DNA of 64,000 nt from a virus (Duplodnaviria > Caudoviricetes), in the IMG/VR virus record IMGVR_UViG_2935054407_000001, positions 32,001 through 96,000 of that record; one strand, given 5' to 3'. A program made the position numbers and the translations under genes. Numbering within the stretch: position 1 is the first letter of the stretch; each line of letters opens with the position of its first letter. The notes under the pieces were generated by a model that saw only the letters and a list, made by a program, of their open reading frames with translations, did no database searches and had not been told where the DNA came from. Of the stretch, positions 56-53,461 are shown piece by piece.

Positions 56-379
56 ATGGATGCCGAGCTGGTCTCGATGCTCGCGAGTCCTAAAAAGGGA
101 ATCGCTCTCAAGTTCGGTGACCAAATTTCGAACGGTGCTCACGTGCTGGCCTACACCGGCATCCACAGCAGCACGAGGATCACACGCGCGGTTGCGCTGT
201 GCTGGTGTCCAACGCGGAAAGAGTTCGTGATCTGGACCATCGAATACGGATACGCCGACCAGGGCGAAGCCTGGTACGCACACAACGGCCACCGCGCGGG
301 ACAAGACCTCGCCTATGCCCTGCTGAGCTATACGCAGCAGGCCGGTCCCGGCGCCTCTCTCCCGAATTTCATCTACTAG
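56..379 (+). CDS. hypothetical early protein (start uncertain)
   Basis: 107-aa ORF; its stop codon overlaps the 5' arm of the hammerhead. Confidence 0.6.
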   Translation: MDAELVSMLASPKKGIALKFGDQISNGAHVLAYTGIHSSTRITRAVALCWCPTRKEFVIWTIEYGYADQGEAWYAHNGHRAGQDLAYALLSYTQQAGPGASLPNFIY

Positions 380-452
380 GCGAAACGCGCGTCTTTCACA
401 CCGGTAGGCGCGCGTCGCGTCGGGAGTCGTTACCCGATGCCTGATGAGCCAG
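376..452 (+). ncRNA. type II hammerhead ribozyme
   Basis: GGC-GAAA (379-385); stem III 385-394/406-415; GUC cleavage triplet 414-416; stem I 417-424/433-440; CUGAUGA 441-447; GCC 448-450 closes stem II. Confidence 0.9.
390..406 (+). promoter_or_regulatory. 17-bp oriented motif CGTCTTTCACACCGGTA, copy 1
   Basis: Perfect match to the consensus; lies in hammerhead stem/loop III. Confidence 0.8.
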
Positions 453-478
453 ACCACACAGAAAGAGGGCACAGACCC

Positions 479-829
479 ATGAGCAACACCGCTAAGCAGA
501 TCCAGGTTGGGACGCACGGCAAGGGCCTGCGGGCGCTGATTGAGGCCCTGGAGACCTGCACTCCCTTCAAGACGGCTGGTGCCTTTCAGGCCATGGCTGG
601 CGTGCCCTCCGGGACCGGCCGCATGCCGAAGGATGAGCGCGAGCGTTTCGAGACCGACCGACCGCAGATCACGTACACCGTTCTTTCGTACGCCACCCCG
701 ATTGCCTGGGTTCTGGAGAACGGAGAGACGTACGTCTCTGACACCTATTACTCACCCACGACGACCAAGCACCAGAGCCGTGTTCGCGTGTATCTGAACC
801 GCGCAAACGTCATTGACGAGGCTGCGTAA
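479..829 (+). CDS. small phage protein (SY-T-IA ... YS-TT-KHQ motif family)
   Basis: ATG 479 after ACACAGAAAGAGGG; motif pattern familiar from phage early genes. Confidence 0.75.
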   Translation: MSNTAKQIQVGTHGKGLRALIEALETCTPFKTAGAFQAMAGVPSGTGRMPKDERERFETDRPQITYTVLSYATPIAWVLENGETYVSDTYYSPTTTKHQSRVRVYLNRANVIDEAA

Positions 830-897
830 CGGTCGTGAGCGCTTCTGACATCGCCCGGAAATCCGGGCGGTGTTGGTGGCACGGCGAACGTGTCAGA
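830..897 (+). repeat. intergenic hairpin repeat A, copy 1
   Basis: 68 bp, near-identical to 1500-1567 (3 mismatches); long stem with G-U pairs. Confidence 0.9.
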
Positions 898-927
898 CCT
901 AAGAACATACACAGAAAGAGGGTTGTA

Positions 928-1497
928 ATGCTCACAGAGATCCGTGCCATCGCTACCGATGTTGCTCGCGAGATGGGTAACTGGACCATTCGCGACGGCT
1001 ACATGAACGGCCAGTTCTTCATCGCCGACGAGAACAAAGAGCTGTGCCTGATGTTCGATCTCACACACGAGACGGGCAGGCTCAGCATCAGTGCCTCGTA
1101 CCCGAAGAATTCCAGTGTGGTGCACGGCATCAAGGGCTACAGCATCCGCGTGTCTTACAAGCGCGGCGCGGTCGTGATCGCACGGGAGATCAAGCGGAGG
1201 TTGATGCCTGACTACCTCCGCGAGCTGGAGAGCGTTGTCACACGGATCGCCGCTCACGAGGCGGAGGAAAGGCGGCAGGCGACCATAGCGCAGACCGTCG
1301 CAACGGCGCTTGGTGTCGATTGCCCGGAGACCGTCCACCCATCCGGAGTCTATGTCCGTAGCGGCTGGTGCGGTCCGAAGGCGCCCGTTACACGCTCGGA
1401 ATTCCGCGTCATGTCCGGTAGCAGCGTGGCTATCGAGATCAAGACGGATGGTGAGGTAGCCGCAAAGATCGCCGAATTCCTTCGGACTCTTATGTAG
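928..1497 (+). CDS. hypothetical protein
   Basis: ATG 928 after ACACAGAAAGAGGG; flanked by the two repeat A copies. Confidence 0.8.
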   Translation: MLTEIRAIATDVAREMGNWTIRDGYMNGQFFIADENKELCLMFDLTHETGRLSISASYPKNSSVVHGIKGYSIRVSYKRGAVVIAREIKRRLMPDYLRELESVVTRIAAHEAEERRQATIAQTVATALGVDCPETVHPSGVYVRSGWCGPKAPVTRSEFRVMSGSSVAIEIKTDGEVAAKIAEFLRTLM

Positions 1498-1499
1498 TG

Positions 1500-1567
1500 C
1501 GGTCGTGAGCGCTTCTGACATCACCCGGATTTCCGGGCGGTGTTGGTGGCACGGCGAACGTGTCAGA
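1500..1567 (+). repeat. intergenic hairpin repeat A, copy 2
   Basis: Direct repeat of 830-897. Confidence 0.9.
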
Positions 1568-1591
1568 GCAACACGCAGAAAGGCGGGACAG

Positions 1592-2191
1592 ATGGGATCG
1601 ATTGGACTTCACCGCGAGCCTGGCATGACCGATCGGGAATTCTTCGAGAAGGAGTTCCCGAACATGCTCGGCAAGTATGGGCAGATCGTGGCCTGTGCTT
1701 CCAACCCCGCTGGTGGCGATTGGAACCGTGCTTTCTATGCGGCGGTCACCAACAACGATGACGCGTCGTATAAGCCGGGCGAGACGTGGGCGTTGGTCGT
1801 GCTGATGCGCAACGACCGTAAATCGTCGGGCGGGTGCAACTTCTACTACAAGGACTTGGACGAGACCATGGGGCCGGTTGAAAGCACCTGCCCGGACCGG
1901 ATTCTTGACCTCCTGTCACCGACCGAACATGCAGGGGCCACCAGGTGGCGAGAGCGCTGCCGTGCCCACAATGCCCGCCTGGACAAGGCGCGGAAGCTCA
2001 CCGACGGTCAGATCATCCGCTTCACCAACCCCATGCCCTTCGGTGAGCCGTATGGAGAGGCTCAGCGCTTCCGCTACCGGAAGGCGGGGCGTAAGTCGGT
2101 CCTTGAAGCGATCACCGATGACGGGGAATTCCGCTTCCGTGCCCGGATTCCCGGCTGGCGCGCAATGTCATTCGAGATCGAGAACAACTAG
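1592..2191 (+). CDS. DUF6927-like protein
   Basis: FYYKDLDETMGP..CPDRILDLLSPT..A..WRERC motif; SD AGAAAGGCGG. Confidence 0.65.
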   Translation: MGSIGLHREPGMTDREFFEKEFPNMLGKYGQIVACASNPAGGDWNRAFYAAVTNNDDASYKPGETWALVVLMRNDRKSSGGCNFYYKDLDETMGPVESTCPDRILDLLSPTEHAGATRWRERCRAHNARLDKARKLTDGQIIRFTNPMPFGEPYGEAQRFRYRKAGRKSVLEAITDDGEFRFRARIPGWRAMSFEIENN

Positions 2192-2207
2192 CAGAAAGAC
2201 GGTAGTG

Positions 2208-2465
2208 ATGGACATCCCCGCTCTCCTCGTACGCATGGCGCGCAGCGTTCCCCGGCACGACAATGCCCGAATGATTATGTGGACGGCACACGAGGCGGTG
2301 AACAACACGTCTGACCTGGTGGATGGTGCACGGGCAGCGCTGGCGTACGTGTCAACGCACATCGGCGATGCTCCCGGACAGTCCAGGGATGAGCTGCTAA
2401 ATGACGCGGTTGCGGTGCTCTCCCTACATCTGGCGCTGCACACCATCGCCGAAAAGTACAAGTAA
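2208..2465 (+). CDS. hypothetical protein
   Basis: ATG after CAGAAAGACGG. Confidence 0.7.
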   Translation: MDIPALLVRMARSVPRHDNARMIMWTAHEAVNNTSDLVDGARAALAYVSTHIGDAPGQSRDELLNDAVAVLSLHLALHTIAEKYK

Positions 2466-2481
2466 GGGAAAGGCGGGAGTA

Positions 2482-2796
2482 ATGCCAGAGCGGCGCAAGG
2501 CGACCACGAAATACACGCTCGTACAGCACAGCGGGAGCACATCGCATGCGGAATTCCGGCACGCGGTAGAAGTGCTCTCCGTCTCGACGCTCACGGAACA
2601 GGACAAGATCGAAAAGGTCGGCGGCCTGCTGTTCGAGAGCTGGGAGGAGGCGGACAACAGGGAGTACGAGGAGAACTACCCGCCGGGGGTTACCGGGCTC
2701 TACCCGCGCGTGCCCGGCACGTTCCGGACCGATCTGAAAATCGATGGGTTCAACCTCTACATCCCCGCTGCGAAGAACGACACGGAAGGCCAGTGA
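2482..2796 (+). CDS. hypothetical protein
   Basis: ATG after GAAAGGCGGG. Confidence 0.75.
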   Translation: MPERRKATTKYTLVQHSGSTSHAEFRHAVEVLSVSTLTEQDKIEKVGGLLFESWEEADNREYEENYPPGVTGLYPRVPGTFRTDLKIDGFNLYIPAAKNDTEGQ

Positions 2797-3110
2797 CCAT
2801 GCCTCTTACCGCCCCCGAAAAGCGAGCCATCAAGCGGGCTTACCGCTGTGTCGTGATGCTGAACGAGCACACGCCGGAATGGCGCGGAATGGTGGACAAG
2901 GACACCCTTGCCATGCATCACACGAGCCGCTGTGTGTTCGGCCAGGTGTTCGGCGACTTCAACGAAGGGATCGACGTGCTGTCCCTGCACGGTTGCGACG
3001 AACCGCAGCGCTACGGGCTGGATCTCGACGTGAGGAACGACGTCATGTACCCCGTGCTGGACACCGCCTGGCGGATCGTGCTTGACCACCTGGACGCGCG
3101 GTCGGCCTAG
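2793..3110 (+). CDS. hypothetical protein
   Basis: GTGA overlap with the upstream gene; CVFGQVFG motif. Confidence 0.75.
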   Translation: MTMPLTAPEKRAIKRAYRCVVMLNEHTPEWRGMVDKDTLAMHHTSRCVFGQVFGDFNEGIDVLSLHGCDEPQRYGLDLDVRNDVMYPVLDTAWRIVLDHLDARSA

Positions 3111-3186
3111 CGGATCCTCTGGTCCCCATGCCTGCCAAATATCGGGGGCGGGCATGGGCGGCCGGGGCGTCCGCTTGGACGATCAC
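3106..3186 (+). repeat. intergenic hairpin repeat B, copy 1 (loop AAATATCGGG)
   Basis: Arms CCTAGCGGATCCTC ... GGGGCGTCCGCT..G.CGATCAC shared with 4091-4172. Confidence 0.85.
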
Positions 3187-3213
3187 CACCACACACACAC
3201 AGAAAGGCGGGAG

Positions 3214-3468
3214 ATGGGAAGGCACAGCAGGAACCGATCGCCGTACCCGGCCAGCAGCACGACCCCTGACCGCTCACAGGTCACGGAATCTGAGAGCGAG
3301 GCTCTCGTCCGGCTCGCTGCTCTGGTCTGTCACAACATCGCTACCGGCTTCGCTCCGGAGCGGGCTGTGGAGGCGGCTCTCCGTTCCTTCGACGACCCCG
3401 AAAGCGTGGTCGAGCTGTGGGCAGCGGTCTGGGAGCGCATCAAATCTGAAGACACCGAAAGGCGGTAG
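3214..3468 (+). CDS. hypothetical protein
   Basis: ATG after ACACACAGAAAGGCGG. Confidence 0.7.
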   Translation: MGRHSRNRSPYPASSTTPDRSQVTESESEALVRLAALVCHNIATGFAPERAVEAALRSFDDPESVVELWAAVWERIKSEDTERR

Positions 3469-3472
3469 AACC

Positions 3473-3784
3473 ATGACCTACAACCACGCACGCATGACGG
3501 ACGCGGATCGCGCTAGGAACACCCGCACCATCACGAACAGGCTCATCCATGCATGGGAGATCATGAAGGCCACGGGTCCGGTTTCTGGCCCAGCCGACTA
3601 CTACACTGGGATGTCCACCGCGTACGAGGCGTTCACCGGCTGCAACCCCGTAGCGCTGTCGATGGCGCTGGACGACAACCGGAAGCGCCACGGCAATCTG
3701 TCGCTCTCCGATCGGGCTGACAAGCTGATCGAGTCCTTGTCTCTGGCCGAGGTCTTCCCCTACCTCAAGGACGGGGACGCGTGA
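3473..3784 (+). CDS. hypothetical protein
   Basis: ATG after GAAAGGCGG. Confidence 0.75.
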   Translation: MTYNHARMTDADRARNTRTITNRLIHAWEIMKATGPVSGPADYYTGMSTAYEAFTGCNPVALSMALDDNRKRHGNLSLSDRADKLIESLSLAEVFPYLKDGDA

Positions 3785-4095
3785 TGACTGCATACGAGAT
3801 CGCTGCTCGGGCCGCTTTCTTCGCCTCCCAGCGCGCGACACAGGCGACCGTGGCAGAGCTGCACAGGTGGGAGCGCGCGGCTCGGCGCTCTGGCAACCGC
3901 GAGCACGTCAAGGAGATCCGGCGCGAGGTGAGGCGCATTCGCGCTACCAAGCGGCTCTCTCTCATCAAGCACGGCGGCGCGTGGGCCTGCTTCGACAACC
4001 GCACGGGGTCAGTCTGCGAGACCTTCGCTTACCGCATGGACGGCGCGACCTACGTCGAGTACTGGAACGGCCAGTACCACAAGCACACGTCCTAG
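3781..4095 (+). CDS. hypothetical protein
   Basis: Start overlaps the upstream stop; 104 aa. Confidence 0.7.
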   Translation: MMTAYEIAARAAFFASQRATQATVAELHRWERAARRSGNREHVKEIRREVRRIRATKRLSLIKHGGAWACFDNRTGSVCETFAYRMDGATYVEYWNGQYHKHTS

Positions 4096-4172
4096 CGGAT
4101 CCTCCGATCACCGCGCGTCTTTCACACCGGTAGAGATGCGCGGCCGGTCGGGGCGTCCGCTGGGGCGATCAC
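4091..4172 (+). repeat. intergenic hairpin repeat B, copy 2; apical stem-loop carries the 17-bp motif (4116-4132)
   Basis: Same outer arms as 3106-3186; inner stem CCGCGCGTCT/AGATGCGCGG. Confidence 0.85.
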
Positions 4173-4202
4173 GACCAACACACACAGAAAGGCGGGAGAT
4201 CT

Positions 4203-4918: not shown

Positions 4919-5692
4919 GTGCGCGCCCGGTTTCTCTGTGGTGCTCCGGAGTTGAGTTGGGCCGAAGATCACGGCGACATCGGGCCGCTTTTCATCAGCT
5001 TCAACCGCATTTGCCGATTGAAGTTTCGGCCCATCGATGTCACCACGGATTTCGCTATCGACAGTGGCGGCTTCACACAGCTTTCCAATGGCGGTTGGCC
5101 GGACGGCTGCGAAGAGCCCTACATCGCGGCGATTCGCAGGCTCAAGCGCTTCATCTGGAGAGGCGGCCACCACCTTCTGTGGATCGCTCCGCAAGATTGG
5201 ATGTGCGAGGAAGAGCAGCTAGCCAACACTGGTCTTACGGTGCTCGAACACCAGAGACGCACCGTGCGGAACTTCGCCCGGCTCACTCAGCTTGCCCCCG
5301 ATCTTCCGTGGGCCATGGCTGTGCAGGGTGATACGCCGAGAGCCTATCTCCGCATTCTCGACATGTACGCAGACGCAGGAGTCGATCCCCTCGCACAGAA
5401 GATCGTTGGCGTCGGTTCCATCTGCCGAATTCAGCACACGGACAAGGCCGTCGAGATTATCGAGACCTTGCACGATGCCGGACTGCGGAAGCTACACGGA
5501 TTCGGACTGAAGACGGAAGGGCTCGCGAAGGTCGGGCATCTCCTCACCTCCGCCGATTCGATGGCCTGGTCTGAGCATGCCCGCAAGCAGAAGATCCACC
5601 TTGACGGGTGCTCGCATAAGCGGTGCGTCTCCTGCCCGAAATTCGCCAAGCAATGGCGAGACAACCTCATCAATCGCGGGCTCGCTGCCTAA
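4919..5692 (+). CDS. queuine tRNA-ribosyltransferase/DpdA-like (TGT-fold) protein
   Basis: Motifs DSGGF, QDWMCE, GVGS, LHGFG, SADSMAWS; C-terminal Cys cluster. Confidence 0.8.
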   Translation: MRARFLCGAPELSWAEDHGDIGPLFISFNRICRLKFRPIDVTTDFAIDSGGFTQLSNGGWPDGCEEPYIAAIRRLKRFIWRGGHHLLWIAPQDWMCEEEQLANTGLTVLEHQRRTVRNFARLTQLAPDLPWAMAVQGDTPRAYLRILDMYADAGVDPLAQKIVGVGSICRIQHTDKAVEIIETLHDAGLRKLHGFGLKTEGLAKVGHLLTSADSMAWSEHARKQKIHLDGCSHKRCVSCPKFAKQWRDNLINRGLAA

Positions 5693-5720: not shown

Positions 5721-6236
5721 ATGTCCTTCTACCCCTATGAGCTGTGCGTGACGCTCCGATCCCAGAACCCGGATGACACGGATGAGATGTCGGTTGATCT
5801 CCTGGCTGTCGAACTGGACGAGTTGAAGGCTGCGGTTCTCAGTACCTTCGGCGGTATCTACGTCGAGGTGGACACGGACGACGGCAACTGGGAAGGCGTC
5901 CAGGTGTCCGGGACCACCATTGAGCAGCTCTGGAAGCTGGCGAAGCTGGCCACCGAGTCTCGTGACGCGAACTGCTTCATGGCCTGGGCGGGCATCCTGC
6001 CGGGCGGGCTCGCGAGTCTTGACCCGGAAACGGCGATCAGGGACTTCCGTAGGGAGTTCGAGGGCGACTACGAAGACCTCGCTGAATATGGACACACCCT
6101 CATGGAGGACGAAATCCGGCACATGCCCATCCTGGACCAGTTCTTCAACTTCGCGGAGTACGGCAAGTACGTCGCCGCTGACCACCGGGTTGTCGAGCTG
6201 TCCACCGGCCGCATCGCCGTCTTTGGGAAGGGCTGA
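5721..6236 (+). CDS. ardA: ArdA-like antirestriction protein
   Basis: Acidic protein; C-terminus FEGDYEDLAEYG..LM...LDQFFNFAEYG...GRIAVF is typical of ArdA. Confidence 0.7.
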   Translation: MSFYPYELCVTLRSQNPDDTDEMSVDLLAVELDELKAAVLSTFGGIYVEVDTDDGNWEGVQVSGTTIEQLWKLAKLATESRDANCFMAWAGILPGGLASLDPETAIRDFRREFEGDYEDLAEYGHTLMEDEIRHMPILDQFFNFAEYGKYVAADHRVVELSTGRIAVFGKG

Positions 6237-12604: not shown

Positions 12605-12856
12605 ATGACAGGTCGCAGGGTATACAGGACCGAGACGGGCCAGCCGCCAGCCGACGAGGGCCGGGACATCATCCCTACCCGAGACGAACGCTGGCGGCCT
12701 AGCTCCCTGGACGATCCTGATCCTCCGGGCAAGCTGGACAGTCACATCCGCCTCTCCCCCGCCGTTCTTCAGCACGTCCTTCGGGAGTGTGAGGCCAGGG
12801 GCGTGCGGTTGAGTGATTGCACGTTTGCCGAAGACGGCTCTGTCATCATCCCGTGA
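12605..12856 (+). CDS. hypothetical protein
   Basis: Last + gene; its stop abuts the terminator. Confidence 0.55.
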   Translation: MTGRRVYRTETGQPPADEGRDIIPTRDERWRPSSLDDPDPPGKLDSHIRLSPAVLQHVLRECEARGVRLSDCTFAEDGSVIIP

Positions 12857-12889
12857 AAAAGCCCCGGCTTCGCGCCGGGGCTTTTTTTT
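12856..12889. terminator. bidirectional intrinsic terminator
   Basis: AAAAAGCCCCGGC-TTCGC-GCCGGGGCTTTTTTTT where the two arms converge. Confidence 0.92.
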
Positions 12890-12930
12890 GCTCGAACACG
12901 GTTCCGCTGCATTTGGCTGTAAGCCAGTTA

Positions 12931-19883: not shown

Positions 19884-19900
19884 TGCCGGTGTGAAAGACG
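19884..19900 (-). promoter_or_regulatory. 17-bp oriented motif, intergenic copy
   Basis: CGTCTTTCACACCGGCA inside a CTAAC/GTTAG stem next to the SD. Confidence 0.8.
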
Positions 19901-24155: not shown

Positions 24156-24205
24156 CGCCTGTGTGAAAGACAGGGCCGCGCACGCGCGGCGCATGCGCGG
24201 CCCTG
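24156..24205 (-). terminator. GC hairpin whose T-tract is the start of a variant 17-bp motif (TGTCTTTCACACAGGCG)
   Basis: CAGGGCCGCGCA...TGCGCGGCCCTG then TCTTT. Confidence 0.65.
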
Positions 24206-24561: not shown

Positions 24562-25248
24562 TTAGAGCATGTCCGCGAAAACGGACGGGCTGGTCTCGGA
24601 CAGAGCGGTGAGCGCCATTTGCGCGAACTGCTGGATTTCGGCGTCGGCGGAGGGGTCGATACGGCGGGCGATGACCTCGCGCCAGGCCCGGAAATTGCCG
24701 GTGACGACCAGCTCGACGGGCGTCATGTTCGGCAGGACGCTGCGGGCGGCTTCGCGCGCCTGCTTGCGCGGCAGCCCTTTCTTGGTCAGGTCGAAGACCA
24801 GGGAGTCATACCAGCCCTTCATCTCCTGGTAGCGGGTGAGGAGGGCGCTGGTCAGCTCCAGGTCTTCCTGGATGGCGGGCGGGATGACGGGGACGTTCTC
24901 GGGCGAGCAGTAGCGCTGGCTGATCACGGAGAAGCTCAGGTGGCGGTGGCGGGTCAGCTCAGCCAGCAGCGAGCGGGAGACGCCTTCCACGTACAGTGAG
25001 GCGGAGGAGTGCTCCAGGACCGACAGGTGGCCCTGGGAGATGATGTGGGCGATGTAGTCGGCGTTCTTCTGGGTGGCCGGGTTCTTCTTCTCCCAGCTCT
25101 GGTAACAGAGCCTTCCTGCGTACTCGATCAGCGCTTCGGTGTCCTTGGGGTAGCCGCCCTCAGGAACAGAACTGATCCAGCCGTATCCGAGCTTGTCGTC
25201 CACGACCTCGCCTTCGAGGCGAGTGATGGCAATCAGTGTGACTTCCAA
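24562..25248 (-). CDS. thyX: flavin-dependent thymidylate synthase
   Basis: GHLSVLEH, RHRHLSFSVISQRY, REAAR. Confidence 0.95.
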   Translation of the reverse strand: MEVTLIAITRLEGEVVDDKLGYGWISSVPEGGYPKDTEALIEYAGRLCYQSWEKKNPATQKNADYIAHIISQGHLSVLEHSSASLYVEGVSRSLLAELTRHRHLSFSVISQRYCSPENVPVIPPAIQEDLELTSALLTRYQEMKGWYDSLVFDLTKKGLPRKQAREAARSVLPNMTPVELVVTGNFRAWREVIARRIDPSADAEIQQFAQMALTALSETSPSVFADML

Positions 25249-25773: not shown

Positions 25774-26767
25774 CGTCGCTCCAACAGCGGGAGAAGTAGG
25801 GGCAGTCGGTGCAGGTCTTGGAATCGCGGGCGAACTCACGCGCCGGAATCATGCCGGTGTGAAAGACGGCTTCCTTGATCGAGGTGGCCTTCTCAAGCAG
25901 CGGCTCGACGACGGCCATGTCCAGCGAGATCGCGAATTCCTTGACGGCCTGGTTGCTCTTGTACTCATACAAAAAGGTCCCGCGCCGGACCCCCAGGCCC
26001 ATGAGGCGCATCGTGATGTAGAGGTAGATCTGGAGCTGGCGGACGTGCGACGGCAGCGGCTCCTGAAGGTCGGCCCACAGGCCGTCCAGGTCGTAGAGCT
26101 TCTTCCCAGCCTCATCGCTGGCGAAATACCACTCCTTGAGCACCTCGGGCGCGTCCATGCGAAGCGTTCCCATGCCGATGGTCTTGATCTCGATCAGCCG
26201 GGCCTTCTCCAGAAGCATGCCGTCGGAGTGGCCCTCGATCAGGAATTCCTTCTCGGCCCGGATCGGCACCTCGGCATACGTCACCGCGAAGGACCAGCAG
26301 CGCGGACACTGCTTGGGGTCAAGACGCAGGTCGGTGACATGGCCACAGTGCAGGCACTTCCACTGGCCATACAGGTCGCCGCTCAGCCTCAGCCAATTCT
26401 GCCATTTGTCATGCAGAGCGTGGCCGGTGGCGAAAATGCTCTCCATCTGGAAGTTGAAATCTGGCCGGGCAGGCATCTTGCCAGCGCGGGCATCCACGAT
26501 CCGGTAGTACGTGGAGCGGGCGCACCAATCATCCTTGGCCATCTCGGAGGGGTGGATGACGTCGGCACGCCGGTCGGTCGGCTTGAGCAGCTCGGCCGCG
26601 ACGTTCTCTGAGATGTCTCCCAGGACGTCCCAGTGCGTTCCCTTGCGCCTGCTGATCTCGGCGAGAGTGCCGCTCAGCTTTATGGCTGGTCGTCTTCCTC
26701 GTCCGCTGCCGCTGCCAGAATTTCCTCTTCCGGTGCGTCCGGTTCTGTTGGCGGGTGCCATTCCCAT
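25535..26767 (-). CDS. Cas4-like PD-(D/E)xK exonuclease
   Basis: HPSE..C, GH.LH, GHSDG, IEIKT, Q.QIY, C-terminal CTDCPY..C. Confidence 0.82.
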   Translation of the reverse strand: MGMAPANRTGRTGRGNSGSGSGRGRRPAIKLSGTLAEISRRKGTHWDVLGDISENVAAELLKPTDRRADVIHPSEMAKDDWCARSTYYRIVDARAGKMPARPDFNFQMESIFATGHALHDKWQNWLRLSGDLYGQWKCLHCGHVTDLRLDPKQCPRCWSFAVTYAEVPIRAEKEFLIEGHSDGMLLEKARLIEIKTIGMGTLRMDAPEVLKEWYFASDEAGKKLYDLDGLWADLQEPLPSHVRQLQIYLYITMRLMGLGVRRGTFLYEYKSNQAVKEFAISLDMAVVEPLLEKATSIKEAVFHTGMIPAREFARDSKTCTDCPYFSRCWSDVAPDQPNTEPAGADQPGQPAGTARAGKSRTGAARAARRVPAATAEGPDGAVGRRADGAVQPPQRMGRLRREPTGIGGDR

Positions 26768-38585: not shown

Positions 38586-39593
38586 TTACCACCGCATCAG
38601 GGAGTAGGGCATGGCCATGGTGAGCTGGTCACTGATCTGCCATGAGGTGAGCAGGACGGTGTTGCCGTCGTCGTCCTTGTAGCCGCCCGGATCGCATCCG
38701 GCGGGCAAGCCCTGGTAGGTGACGACAGAGACGGCGACATAGCGTTTGTGCAGCTCACGGGCCACGTACTGGGCGGCTCGCCAGCCTGCGTCGTCGTTGT
38801 CCAGCCAGATGATCACGCGTCTGAAGGCGCTCAGCAGGGCGATCTGGGGGGCGCTGACCTTCGCGCCGAATGTGGAGACGGGGTGTTCCACGCCGTGTGT
38901 CGCCAGGACGCCGCAGTCCAGCGGGGATTCGATCAGGACGGCGGTGCCGGGGGCGGCGCGGGCCACGTGGTAGCCGAAGACGGTCTCGCTCTTCTTCACG
39001 CCGTAGGGGCGATTGCGTACGTAGCCCTGGGACTTGGTCTGCCAGCCCAGGAGCTTGCCGCGCTGATCACGGATGGGGGTGATCCACGCGGAGTGCTTGG
39101 CGTCCCACAAGATCCCGAATTTCTGGGCGGCGGCCAGGGACATGCCGCGCTTGGCCAGCTCCTCGGAGGGCGGATCGACGTACAGCGCGAGCGCCGCTTC
39201 GCTGACTTTGATGCGCTCGGGCTCGGGTTCGCGCTCTTCGTACATGCGGGCGACGGCGGCCACGGTGCCTTGGCTGCGGATCCACGCGACGGCCTGGCCG
39301 TGCTCGACACCGAGCATGTAGGCGGCCAGATCTGGGAAGCGGCCGGAGAAGCCGCAGGAGAAGCAGTTGAACTTCCCGCTGGAGGCGTTGACGGAGAAGG
39401 AAGGGTCGCGGTCTTCGTGGCCGAGGCGCTCGAAGTGCGCGGGGCAGCGGGCGGAGACTTCCCCCAGGGCCTCGCCCGTGACCTCGATCTTGAGGGCTTC
39501 CATGGCGGCGGCCACGTCTCCAGGGACGACGTCCACGAAGGCATCCCAGCCCTTCGCAATCTTGTGCCGGGGTGAAAGACGGTCAGTAGCCAT
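38586..39593 (-). CDS. DNA primase (Zn finger plus TOPRIM)
   Basis: CPAH..CFSC; IESPLD; LDND.AG. Confidence 0.9.
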   Translation of the reverse strand: MATDRLSPRHKIAKGWDAFVDVVPGDVAAAMEALKIEVTGEALGEVSARCPAHFERLGHEDRDPSFSVNASSGKFNCFSCGFSGRFPDLAAYMLGVEHGQAVAWIRSQGTVAAVARMYEEREPEPERIKVSEAALALYVDPPSEELAKRGMSLAAAQKFGILWDAKHSAWITPIRDQRGKLLGWQTKSQGYVRNRPYGVKKSETVFGYHVARAAPGTAVLIESPLDCGVLATHGVEHPVSTFGAKVSAPQIALLSAFRRVIIWLDNDDAGWRAAQYVARELHKRYVAVSVVTYQGLPAGCDPGGYKDDDGNTVLLTSWQISDQLTMAMPYSLMRW

Positions 39594-42118: not shown

Positions 42119-43112
42119 GGGTGGCCTGCCTCTCTGCCTGGATTTCGGCCCAGGTCTTGGGGGTGTCGTAGAGGGCGACGTCGTCTTGGCTCAGGCCCCA
42201 GCTCTCGGCGTAGCCGTCGGCGGCGGGGTTGTGGTGCTGGTCGGTGTGCTCGGCGGCCTGGAGGCGCTCGGCCAGCGCGGCGCGGCGGGCCAGGAAGCTC
42301 ACCCAGGCGACGCGGCCCTGCCAGTGCAAGCTGGGGTCGCTGGCGTAGATGTCGATCATGGAGCGGATCTGGTCGGGCGTGACGCCTGCCTGCTTCCAGC
42401 CGTTCAGGCTCTTGGCCAGGGCCGGGAGGTTGGTGGTGCCGACCTTGGCGGCGAGGTCGTTGCTGGCGCGCATGCGGGTCTCGAAGTACTGGGCGAGGCC
42501 GAGGCCGGTGTCGGGGTTGGTGCTGCGGCCCTTGGCCGGTGCCGGATCCTGCTCGGGGAGGTCGAAGAGGCCCTGGCTTCGTGCCGGGTCGAAGTCGTCA
42601 TCCTTCTGCCGGTGTGAAAGACGGTCCTTGGACCGGCTGCCCGCCGCCGCTCGCGCGGAGCGCGTGCGTGGGGTTGTAGTTCGCTTAGTACTTGGTACTA
42701 CTCCGTAATTACTAAGATCCGGCTTTTCCGGATGCGGGAAACCCGGATCCGGATTTTCAGGATGCGGGGGCTGACCTGGGGAAACTTCGGGGAACTTCCC
42801 CTCGTTGTCACAGCGCATGAAGTACCGCTTGCGCACCAGGCCAGGGCGCTCAGGGTCGGGGACGTCCTCGATCCCCATGTACGCGGCGTCTACGAGGATC
42901 TTCAGCGCTGCGTAGATGGCGTCGCGCCCCTCGGTGAACTTCTTCATGAGGTCGCCGACGCGGACCACCCAGCCGTCAGGGCGGGTCACGAGGTAGACGA
43001 GGATGCCGTAGGAGCGGGCGGAGATCATGCCCGGCTCCAGGAGGTCGTTGGAGAGGACCGTGTATCCGCCACGACGGCGCGGGATACGGATTTCGGTGGA
43101 GACGTCGGCCAC
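42105..43112 (-). CDS. replication initiator (HTH, replisome-organiser-like)
   Basis: YTVLSND, GILVYL.TRPDGW, EGRDAI..AL..L...Y; directly upstream of the DnaC-like gene. Confidence 0.75.
   Translation of the reverse strand: MADVSTEIRIPRRRGGYTVLSNDLLEPGMISARSYGILVYLVTRPDGWVVRVGDLMKKFTEGRDAIYAALKILVDAAYMGIEDVPDPERPGLVRKRYFMRCDNEGKFPEVSPGQPPHPENPDPGFPHPEKPDLSNYGVVPSTKRTTTPRTRSARAAAGSRSKDRLSHRQKDDDFDPARSQGLFDLPEQDPAPAKGRSTNPDTGLGLAQYFETRMRASNDLAAKVGTTNLPALAKSLNGWKQAGVTPDQIRSMIDIYASDPSLHWQGRVAWVSFLARRAALAERLQAAEHTDQHHNPAADGYAESWGLSQDDVALYDTPKTWAEIQAERQATHAAD
42686..42768. repeat. iteron-like 23-bp direct repeats plus AT-rich tract (putative ori)
   Basis: GATCCGG(C/A)TTTTC(C/A)GGATGCGGG at 42716 and 42746; AT-rich 42686-42715. 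Confidence 0.6.
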
Positions 43113-53222: not shown

Positions 53223-53461
53223 CAGGACTCCCCGTACTGACCCGCCGGGCTGAAGTAGCTACCGCCTGCCGGTCTGAAAGACGCCTCCGGCTGGGGAGCG
53301 GCATCCGCCGGACGGTACAGCAGCACGAGCGTCTCCAGCTCCCGGATACGCGCCTGCGCGGTCCGCAGCCGGGCCTCGGTCACCACGGCGCGATCCTCGG
53401 CCGCGATACGCGCGGCTCGCTGAGCCTCCGCGTAGTCAGACAAATTCAGCGCGTCGTCCAC
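53222..53461 (-). CDS. small coiled-coil protein
   Basis: 79-aa ORF; contains a 17-bp motif copy at 53267-53283. Confidence 0.6.
   Translation of the reverse strand: MDDALNLSDYAEAQRAARIAAEDRAVVTEARLRTAQARIRELETLVLLYRPADAAPQPEASFRPAGGSYFSPAGQYGES

What the first reader, a model, noticed from the sequence alone, without database searches (positions are those of the whole stretch)
385..4143. The oriented motif is displayed as a hairpin loop, including loop III of the hammerhead: a possible protein-gated ribozyme system
Seen: the 22-mer CGCGCGTCTTTCACACCGGTAG forms the 5' strand and loop of hammerhead stem III (386-407). It does the same in an unrelated hairpin at 4112-4133, where the 3' strand differs yet still pairs (AGGCGCGCG versus AGATGCGCG). 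At 19884 the motif again sits inside a stem (CTAAC/GTTAG) that touches the next gene's SD. At 24156 it supplies a terminator's U-tract. Inference: one ligand site is wired into a ribozyme, a processing hairpin, an RBS and a terminator, which would be an RNA-level regulon. I know of no described natural phage example. Alternative: it is a DNA operator parked in tolerant loops.
Basis: inference. Interest (0 to 1): 0.85.

Follow-up and report, generated by a model that had tools for sequence, protein, structure and literature searches.

The report
Oriented phage motif nested in ribozyme hairpins
A 17-base signal repeated 18 times in a temperate actinobacterial phage, always pointing with transcription and often sitting at the tip of RNA hairpins including hammerhead ribozymes, is most likely a binding site for a phage-specific regulator acting on DNA rather than a switch for the ribozymes.

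Summary
The window is part of a 108,967-bp temperate myovirus-like phage. Its genome has 5 type II hammerhead matches (3 at or above Rfam's cut-off). Four carry the motif cgTCTTTCACACCGGyA at the apex of stem III. The genome has 18 copies, all pointing with the local genes through five strand switches.

The only close relative, a Nonomuraea prophage, carries a different variant (cgTCTmyCwAACCGGGA) at the same positions, even inside coding sequence. A phage-specific trans factor therefore reads the motif.

In the early operon, 10 of 14 copies sit exactly on top of stems of 7 or more pairs (chance about 0.5% per site), and the stems covary. Elsewhere the motif has no stem, lies in three reading frames, or forms the stem of a terminator. 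The only common denominators are sequence and orientation.

My best reading (0.5) is a stoperator-like oriented DNA operator that sits at hairpin apices. The RNA-level reading (0.27) is not excluded. Ribozyme gating has no support: one hammerhead lacks the motif in both phages. The RBS and terminator couplings are not conserved. No binding protein was identified.

The parts
378..458 (+). Type II hammerhead ribozyme. It has GAAA, stem III, a GUC cleavage triplet, stem I, CUGAUGA and a 3-bp open stem II. It lies between two early genes.
   Evidence: Rfam RF02276: 42.4 bits against a cut-off of 37. The minimum-energy fold reproduces the three-way junction.
390..406 (+). Motif copy CGTCTTTCACACCGGTA at the apex of hammerhead stem III
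   Evidence: 34.4 bits against the position weight matrix; 7 abutting lower-stem pairs.
4111..4143 (+). Free-standing intergenic hairpin with the motif at its apex
   Evidence: -20.7 kcal/mol, z -4.10. The ortholog in the relative keeps the stem but carries the other motif variant.
4116..4132 (+). Motif copy
   Evidence: 31.8 bits.
19884..19900 (-). Intergenic motif copy, 4 nt after one ORF's stop and just before AGGAG-ATG of the next ORF
   Evidence: 33.6 bits. The flanking 5-bp stem is not conserved.
24156..24172 (-). Intergenic motif copy (variant TGTCTTTCACACAGGCG). Its first bases form the T-rich tail after a GC hairpin.
   Evidence: (25.7 bits).
24175..24190 (-). GC hairpin upstream of that copy (terminator-like consensus hit)
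   Evidence: Such hits are not above shuffles in number, and the hairpin is absent in the ortholog.
25852..25868 (-). Motif copy inside a 437-aa ORF, 982 nt from its start, read as V-F-H-T-G
   Evidence: The ortholog carries the other variant and reads V-Y-Q-T-G (with my translation of that output).
39565..39581 (-). Motif copy (one mismatch) 14 nt after the start codon of a 335-aa ORF and 4 nt after the stop of the preceding ORF
42607..42623 (-). Motif copy inside a 379-aa ORF, 623 nt from its start
53267..53283 (-). Motif copy (one mismatch) in the 3' part of a 79-aa ORF, about 47 nt before the next start

Best explanation
The motif is an oriented, asymmetric 15-17-bp recognition site for a phage-encoded, phage-specific DNA-binding protein. 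It is spread over all transcription units of a temperate phage and always faces the oncoming RNA polymerase the same way. It would work like the 'stoperators' of Cluster A mycobacteriophages: the bound protein blocks or modulates elongation in an orientation-dependent way, silencing or timing the prophage genes.

In the early operon the short intergenic spaces are filled with functional RNA structure: hammerheads that cut the polycistronic mRNA, and plain hairpins. There the site sits at the apex of a stem, the position where 17 fixed bases do least harm. Its 3' flank has been tuned to pair with its 5' part so that the stem stays closed.

Shown: the motif, its copy number, its orientation, the variant switch between relatives, the hairpin-apex placement and the hammerheads.

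Inferred: that the factor is a protein, that it reads duplex DNA, and that binding blocks transcription.
For: (1) Copy number and orientation. G000 has 18 sites of at least 25 bits, and the next best scores are 14.4 and 10.4. Shuffled genomes give about 0.5 hits at 10 bits or more. All 18 are co-oriented with the local genes through five strand switches. In the relative, 14 of 14 are co-oriented.

(2) Variant switch. The relative (70-82% nucleotide identity, syntenic) carries a different variant at the orthologous positions. The G000 variant is absent from it: 2 hits at up to 2 mismatches against 2 in the control. Sites inside ORFs changed as well.

(3) Prophage-restricted. In the relative's 12.4-Mb host genome, all 12 exact matches lie in the prophage region, within 74 kb.

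(4) Context independence. The motif occurs at hairpin apices, in three reading frames, and as two head-to-head copies forming a palindrome at a convergent gene junction in both phages. Duplex recognition explains all of these; loop display does not.

(5) Regulatory position. A site lies in the 58-bp divergent region before a GntR-type regulator gene in both phages, each with its own loop variant.

(6) Lifestyle. The phage is temperate: it has integrases, and the relative is an integrated prophage.

(7) Precedent. The L5 repressor binds more than twenty asymmetric 13-mers in promoters and short intergenic spaces. Their orientation correlates with transcription, and reversed sites are inactive (PMC9283540, passages read).

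(8) Adaptive pairing. Pairing of the motif's 3' part with its 5' part is better where a lower stem exists. By my count's site list, it is 5-6 of 6 pairs with a lower stem and mostly 4 of 6 elsewhere. That is what adaptation of a hairpin around a fixed site predicts.
Against: No binding protein was identified.
- There is no sequence homolog of L5 gp71 among all ORFs of both phages (best E 1.8).
- PDB sequence searches of two lysogeny-module proteins were blank or insignificant.
- The bipartite-HTH candidate g16 has nearly identical recognition helices in the two phages.

No motif lies at the two sigma-70-like divergent promoters, which are consensus predictions only.

Apex placement is exact, with no slack on the 5' side, in 10 of 14 early-operon sites, although those intergenic spaces have room elsewhere. 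'Tolerant loop' alone does not explain this well.

The motif's internal pairing uses U.G wobbles that work only on the sense RNA strand.

Only two genomes carry the system, so co-variation with a protein cannot be tested.
Confidence: 0.5

Rival explanations
1. RNA-level module. The motif is the apical part of an RNA hairpin (stem UCUUUC/GGNAGR, pentaloop ACACC; in the relative UCUCCC/GGGAGA, loop UAACC or AAACC). A phage-specific RNA-binding factor reads it. Stem III lies 5' of the hammerhead cleavage site, so the hairpin would cap the 3' end of each processed early mRNA. It could then mark that mRNA for stabilisation, decay or translation control. The reader's stronger version, gating of cleavage, is a sub-case.
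For: 10 of 32 sites have at least 7 contiguous stem pairs directly abutting the 17-mer, against a probability of 0.005-0.006 at random positions. All 10 are in the early operon. The hairpins have z-scores of -2.7 to -6.3. The lower stems covary: 18 cells changed on both sides, and 0 of 500 shuffles reach this (on 9 of 13 hairpin-type sites). Orthologs G000 29808 and G001 7735 have different stems that both pair. U.G in G000 becomes C-G in the relative. Strict sense orientation holds throughout. In 7 of the relative's 14 sites (my count) the motif contains CUAACC, the same letters as the phi21 boxB hexaloop bound by the N peptide (PMC12550061, passage read).
Against: Of the 18 sites outside the early operon, 17 have at most 3 abutting pairs and one has 5. 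Four G000 sites are inside ORFs, two of them 620-980 nt from any gene boundary. At the convergent junction the sense motif is buried in a 13-17-bp duplex with its own inverted copy, yet it keeps the phage-specific variant. The fourth apical pair is mismatched in 4 of 9 hairpins, and no apical pair shows a change on both sides. Four of the nine covarying stems are hammerhead stem III, which must pair anyway. No arginine-rich or other RNA-binding protein conserved in both phages was found. One hammerhead lacks the motif in both phages, so cleavage does not need it.
Confidence: 0.27
2. Phage-specific promoter or start element. The 17-mer would be recognised by a phage-encoded sigma-like factor or polymerase, as with the roughly 17 oriented promoters of T7-like phages (recalled), whose consensus differs between relatives.
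For: The copy number, the strict orientation, the mostly intergenic position upstream of genes and the phage-specific variant all fit. At genome 23455 the motif ends 6 nt before an ATG, which would fit a leaderless start.
Against: Pfam found no polymerase family in the 10 proteins tested, which include the five longest ORFs of the crude gene list. Two sites are 620-980 nt inside long ORFs and 650-800 nt from the next start. One site lies just after a start codon. Most sites are closer to the preceding stop (4-42 nt for 12 of 18, my count) than to the next start. A start inside stem III would make a truncated ribozyme. There is no conserved element downstream of the motif.
Confidence: 0.1
3. 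boxA/nut-like element. Host Nus factors (NusB-NusE), with or without a phage N-like protein, would read it as single-stranded RNA and load processive antitermination complexes.
For: The G000 motif, read as RNA, matches the lambda nutR boxA-spacer oligonucleotide printed in PMC2724277 (passage read) at 10 of 11 aligned positions with one gap. That is my alignment by eye. The sense orientation and the loop display fit an element that must be single-stranded.
Against: It was one of several known motifs I compared, so the resemblance carries little weight. There are 18 sites, none promoter-proximal by the predictions. The phage-specific variants argue against a host factor. In hammerheads the motif stays on the upstream cleavage product, detached from the polymerase. 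The 118 nt of rrn leader available from the relative's host show no matching element. The only arginine-rich small ORF is absent from the relative.
Confidence: 0.08
4. No trans factor. A hairpin module spreads between paralogous intergenic regions by recombination or gene conversion, and the motif is merely its conserved core.
For: Intergenic regions share flanks: the repeat families D13 and D14 flank both the hairpin at 4111-4143 and a motif-less hairpin near 3121-3160. The 22-mer is identical between the hammerhead and the hairpin. The hairpin at genome 29808 resembles the stem III of two hammerheads (family D2).
Against: Sites inside ORFs, in three frames and without flanking similarity, keep the motif and switched variant together with the intergenic ones. 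The strict orientation and the absence of decayed copies (a score gap from 25 to 14 bits) indicate selection on the sequence itself.
Confidence: 0.05

Closest known systems
Stoperators of Cluster A mycobacteriophages (L5 gp71, TipsytheTRex repressor)
   Same: Both involve a temperate actinobacteriophage with roughly twenty copies of an asymmetric site spread over the genome, mostly in short intergenic spaces. Orientation is tied to the direction of transcription. The consensus differs between related phages (PMC9283540 passages; PMC6550527 seen as a listing and abstract start only).
   Different: This is a 109-kb myovirus-like phage of a Nonomuraea-type host. The site is longer (15-17 bp against 13). 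There is no gp71 homolog. No site lies at the predicted early promoters. In the early operon the sites are nested at the apex of RNA hairpins and ribozyme stems. I did not find this described for Cluster A, but I ran no dedicated search for it.
Clustered type II hammerheads in prophage polycistronic transcripts (Perreault et al. 2011)
   Same: Several hammerheads flank single genes or short gene blocks in an early, anti-restriction-type region. The paper's example flanks ardA (PMC3088659 passages). Here ArdA and DpdA genes lie in the same operon.
   Different: The passages I read do not mention a conserved, genome-wide motif in loop III. The paper's alignment of all hammerheads is a supplement I could not see.
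Lambdoid N-nut antitermination (boxA plus boxB hairpin, phage-specific loop and N peptide)
   Same: Both are sense-oriented RNA elements with a short hairpin whose loop differs between related phages. The relative's loop letters equal the phi21 boxB hexaloop, and the G000 motif resembles the nutR boxA-spacer.
   Different: There are 18 sites rather than one per early operon, and they are not promoter-proximal. No conserved arginine-rich protein was found. Some sites are inside ORFs or buried in stems.
Conserved inverted repeats bound by the repressor of Streptomyces phage phiC31
   Same: As I recall, there are many highly conserved 17-bp repressor sites in intergenic regions of a temperate actinophage.
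   Different: This comparison is recalled only. My search did not retrieve the primary papers, so nothing was checked. Those repeats are symmetric as I recall, whereas the present site is asymmetric and oriented.

Membership tests
Hammerhead ribozyme type II (Rfam RF02276) | Covariance-model score at or above the curated cut-off (37 bits) | tested here: met
   The window copy scores 42.4 bits. Genome-wide there are 5 matches at 49.2, 42.4, 37.2, 33.5 and 27.6 bits, so 3 of 5 reach the cut-off.
Hammerhead ribozyme type II (Rfam RF02276) | Catalytic core CUGANGA ... GAAA, a cleavage triplet NUH, and three stems with stem II open | tested here: met
   The sequence 378-458 shows GAAA, GUC and CUGAUGA, with GGC/GCC as stem II. 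The minimum-energy fold gives the three-way junction.
Hammerhead ribozyme type II (Rfam RF02276) | Self-cleavage | not testable with these tools
   No RNA run holds this sequence.
Stoperator-type immunity system (Cluster A mycobacteriophages) | Many copies of an asymmetric site spread over the genome | tested here: met
   18 sites in G000 and 14 in the relative, far above shuffles.
Stoperator-type immunity system (Cluster A mycobacteriophages) | Orientation correlated with the direction of transcription | tested here: met
   18 of 18 and 14 of 14 sites are co-oriented with local genes.
Stoperator-type immunity system (Cluster A mycobacteriophages) | Sites mainly in short intergenic spaces | tested here: met
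   14 of 18 G000 sites are intergenic and 4 are in ORFs.
Stoperator-type immunity system (Cluster A mycobacteriophages) | A copy acting as operator at the early lytic promoter | tested here: inconclusive
   No copy lies at the two sigma-70-like promoter predictions, but real promoters are unknown. One copy lies in a 58-bp divergent regulatory region.
Stoperator-type immunity system (Cluster A mycobacteriophages) | Repressor homologous to L5 gp71 (HTH plus stoperator domain) | tested here: not met
   phmmer of gp71 against all ORFs of at least 60 aa in G000, G001 and the left prophage flank gave a best E of 1.8. It is therefore not a member by descent; this is a claim of 'works like' only.
Stoperator-type immunity system (Cluster A mycobacteriophages) | Protein binds duplex DNA and blocks elongation in one orientation | not testable with these tools
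   Needs gel shifts and reporter assays.
Lambdoid nut site (boxA + boxB, N protein) | One promoter-proximal site per early operon | tested here: not met
   There are 18 sites. The first early-operon site is about 1.1 kb from the predicted promoter.
Lambdoid nut site (boxA + boxB, N protein) | Small arginine-rich N-like protein encoded by the phage | tested here: not met
   The only plausible arginine-rich small ORF (51 aa, L002:12427-12582) has no counterpart in the relative.
T7-like phage-specific promoters | Phage-encoded RNA polymerase | tested here: inconclusive
   Pfam named no polymerase family in the 10 proteins tested, which include the five longest ORFs of the crude gene list. About 100 smaller ORFs were not scanned.

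The most novel reading that the evidence does not exclude
The motif hairpin is read as RNA. Because stem III lies upstream of the hammerhead cut, each processed early mRNA would end in a hairpin that carries a phage-specific address label. A phage protein would read these labels, and also the label-only copies inside late messages, to set the stability, translation or cleavage timing of the transcriptome. That would be an RNA-level regulon coupled to ribozyme processing, with specificity that has diverged between sister phages much as N-boxB pairs have.
Probability: 0.25. Interest if true: 0.8.

Novelty: new variant of a known kind. Interest (0 to 1): 0.55.

Why it matters
If the DNA reading is right, genome-wide oriented roadblock silencing is not peculiar to Cluster A mycobacteriophages. 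It would have arisen with an unrelated protein in a large myovirus-like phage of another actinobacterial order. It would also show that one stretch of sequence can serve two layers at once: a protein site in DNA and the cap of a ribozyme stem in RNA.

The two sister phages with switched motif variants are a ready-made pair for mapping specificity and immunity.

If the RNA reading is right, this would be a natural case of ribozyme-processed messages carrying a protein-readable tag. I found no such case in the literature passages I read.

Tried and rejected
- More relatives. Megablast of 6 kb against phages gave nothing. A neighbouring early protein gave no relatives in the genome or viral collections. 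A sheath profile found one close genome (88%) among 19 genome loci, and none among 33 metagenome loci, all at most 42% identical. The exact 15-mer in viral contigs gave 35 contigs with one hit each, which looks like chance.
- Finding the factor. Pfam or PHROGs were run on 79 different predicted proteins. They found DNA binders in the lysogeny module (GntR, LuxR, XRE, Lsr2, a zinc finger and a two-HTH protein) but nothing that ties any of them to the motif. PDB sequence searches of two proteins were blank or insignificant.
- The two-HTH protein. It has only three homologs in 5.8 billion sequences. Its model (pLDDT 68) gave only non-significant matches to bipartite HTH domains, best E 0.02.
- The Atlas look-ups gave one weak Bro-N lead and nothing else.
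- L5 gp71 has no homolog here.
- No conserved arginine-rich ORF was found.
- The divergent regulatory region shows no shared repressor-like ORF.
- The host rrn leader shows no matching boxA (only 118 nt were available).
- A flank-shuffle test based on minimum-energy folds did not discriminate in this GC-rich DNA. I replaced it with the abutting-stack test.
- The phi21 boxB structure paper is not held.
- Ideas considered and dropped: an anti-Shine-Dalgarno role, an ops/RfaH-like element, Chi or replication-oriented sites (the orientation follows genes through five switches), and DpdA target sites (too few and too long).

Full report
**What the window is.** The window is bases 32001-96000 of a 108,967-bp virus record, here called G000, with 63% G+C. 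Pfam finds a tail sheath, baseplate J, a tape-measure-like protein with lysin domains, RecA and a class II ribonucleotide reductase. It also finds two integrase-family genes and a lysogeny or accessory module with GntR, LuxR, XRE and Lsr2 regulators. No close relative is in the phage collection.

One relative was found, a 90-kb provirus record called G001. Its sheath is 88% identical and it is syntenic at 66-82% nucleotide identity. It lies in a Nonomuraea genome, G002. That prophage extends beyond the G001 record on the left. The wider searches returned only distant sheath proteins.

**Checking the observation.** The 22-mer is exact at 386-407 and 4112-4133. Rfam calls a type II hammerhead at 378-458, above its cut-off. 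The 22-mer forms the 5' strand and the inserted loop of the stem III hairpin. The second copy heads a stable, unrelated hairpin (z -4.1).

The 5-bp stem at 19884 has no counterpart at the orthologous site. The terminator-like hairpin before 24156 is found by a consensus scan that is not above shuffles, and the relative lacks it.

**The picture is larger than reported.**
- G000 has five hammerhead matches, all in one rightward early operon just upstream of and into the window. Three reach the cut-off.
- Four of the five carry the motif at the apex of stem III. The fifth has a short loop and no motif.
- The relative has three hammerheads, two with a motif. The one without is the counterpart of G000's motif-less copy.
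- A weight matrix finds 18 sites of at least 25 bits in G000, with a clean gap to the next scores of 14.4 and 10.4.
- All 18 point with the local genes, although gene orientation switches five times.
- By my gene calls, 14 sites are intergenic, usually 4-42 nt after a stop codon. Four lie in ORFs, in three different frames.

**A trans factor reads the motif.** The relative does not contain the G000 motif. It has cgTCTmyCwAACCGGGA instead, at 14 sites, positionally matching the G000 sites in the early operon, the leftward operon and the late operon.

At the site inside the 437-aa ORF, the two phages encode V-F-H-T-G and V-Y-Q-T-G. The protein sequence has followed the motif. In the 12.4-Mb host genome, all 12 exact copies of the variant lie within the prophage. 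Concerted, phage-specific change at orthologous sites is what a recognition site for a phage-encoded factor predicts.

**Anatomy at the RNA level.** In folds, the motif is not a fully open 17-nt loop. Its 5' part (UCUUUC) pairs with its 3' part (GGNAGR), leaving ACACC as the loop. In the relative, UCUCCC pairs with GGGAGA around UAACC or AAACC.

Ten of 32 sites have at least 7 contiguous pairs directly abutting the 17-mer. Random positions reach this 0.5-0.6% of the time. All ten are in the early operon: three are hammerhead stem III and seven are free hairpins.

I aligned 9 of the 13 hairpin-type sites. Two were dropped because their 3' arm is offset by 2 nt, and two hammerheads with shorter loops were not included. 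On these nine, the lower stem shows 18 cells changed on both sides, which 0 of 500 shuffles reach. The apical pairs show only one-sided changes, and the fourth pair is unpaired in 4 of 9.

Outside the early operon, no site has more than 5 abutting pairs.

**A telling locus.** Between convergent genes at genome 12881 (outside the window) lie two head-to-head copies that form a long palindrome. The same arrangement is at the orthologous place in the relative's host genome. There the sense motif is the 3' arm of a 13-17-bp stem, and in G000 it is followed by a U-tract. The motif keeps each phage's own variant although it cannot be displayed in a loop.

**Weighing the readings.** Sequence and orientation are the only features shared by all sites. 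That fits recognition of duplex DNA by an asymmetric binder.

It also matches the published signature of Cluster A stoperators. These are more than twenty asymmetric 13-mers in promoters and short intergenic spaces. Their orientation is tied to transcription, and they are inactive when reversed.

The phage is temperate, and one site lies in a 58-bp divergent region before a regulator gene in both phages. I therefore put the operator reading first, at 0.5.

It is a 'works like' claim only. No gp71 homolog exists here, no binder was identified, and no site lies at the predicted promoters.

The exact apex placement and the sense-only wobble pairs remain better explained by an RNA function, which I keep at 0.27. 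Gating of cleavage is the least supported part. The motif sits at the catalytically least important position (established knowledge of hammerheads, not tested here), and one ribozyme in each phage does without it.

**Resemblances followed up.**
- In 7 of the relative's 14 sites, the loop with its closing base reads CUAACC. That is the same as the phi21 boxB hexaloop.
- The G000 motif aligns with the lambda nutR boxA-spacer at 10 of 11 positions with one gap.
- These are leads from a handful of comparisons, not tests. Site number, site position and the lack of a conserved arginine-rich protein speak against a nut system.

**Known background.** Arrays of hammerheads flanking single genes in prophage transcripts, including next to ardA, are described. 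The ribozymes themselves are therefore ordinary.

**Limits.**
- Only two genomes carry the system.
- Gene calls are my own crude ones.
- Promoters are consensus guesses.
- No expression data exist.
- The supplement with all hammerhead alignments of PMC3088659 was not seen.

Noticed in passing
window 830-897 and 1500-1567 (+): A 68-nt intergenic element occurs twice at 96% identity, each copy just after a stop codon. It folds strongly (-39.9 kcal/mol, z -4.69, 0 of 200 shuffles) and matches no Rfam family at E up to 1. It could be another processing or structural RNA of the early operon.
   Followed up: partly
window 455-478, 905-927, 1570-1591, 3190-3213, 4180-4202 and others; L002 family D1: The leader ACACAGAAAGGCGG precedes many early start codons: 7 copies in repeat family D1. 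The 10-mers ACACAGAAAG and AGAAAGGCGG are among the commonest in both phages. The leader is complementary, with one mismatch, to the 16S 3' end CCUCCUUUCU seen in the relative's host. It is therefore an extended Shine-Dalgarno sequence.
   Followed up: partly
window 4919-5692 and 5721-6236 (+): DpdA (a 7-deazaguanine DNA transglycosylase family, E 6e-64) and ArdA anti-restriction genes lie side by side in the ribozyme-punctuated early operon. This suggests modified DNA and an anti-defence block.
   Followed up: no
window 3121-3160 (+): A hairpin without the motif sits in an intergenic region whose flanks are paralogous to those of the motif hairpin at 4111-4143 (families D13 and D14; sequence). 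The same frame thus carries a different apex.
   Followed up: partly
L002:7020-7090 (genome about 25,020-25,090) and L002:7219-8066: An AT-rich stretch of AATTA-type repeats lies between two divergent sigma-70-like promoter predictions. About 860 nt of apparently non-coding leader follow before the first early gene. The phage also encodes an Lsr2 homolog at L001:9647-9982.
   Followed up: no
L002:12427-12582 (+): A 51-aa ORF with a canonical leader and an arginine-rich stretch ends right at the motif-less hammerhead. The relative has an unrelated ORF at this position.
   Followed up: partly
L002:9874-9953 (+): One hammerhead has CUGAGGA in place of CUGAUGA, and two of the five score below the Rfam cut-off. 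Their activities may differ.
   Followed up: no
window 12799-12891 (+): Several sRNA and leader models give weak hits to the same roughly 60-90 nt at the point where the rightward and leftward gene blocks converge. This is probably a terminator hairpin.
   Followed up: no
L001:8487-8873 (-): A 128-aa protein has two helix-turn-helix units joined by a disordered linker. It lies next to an integrase and has only three homologs in 5.8 billion proteins, all from Nonomuraea-associated sequences.
   Followed up: partly
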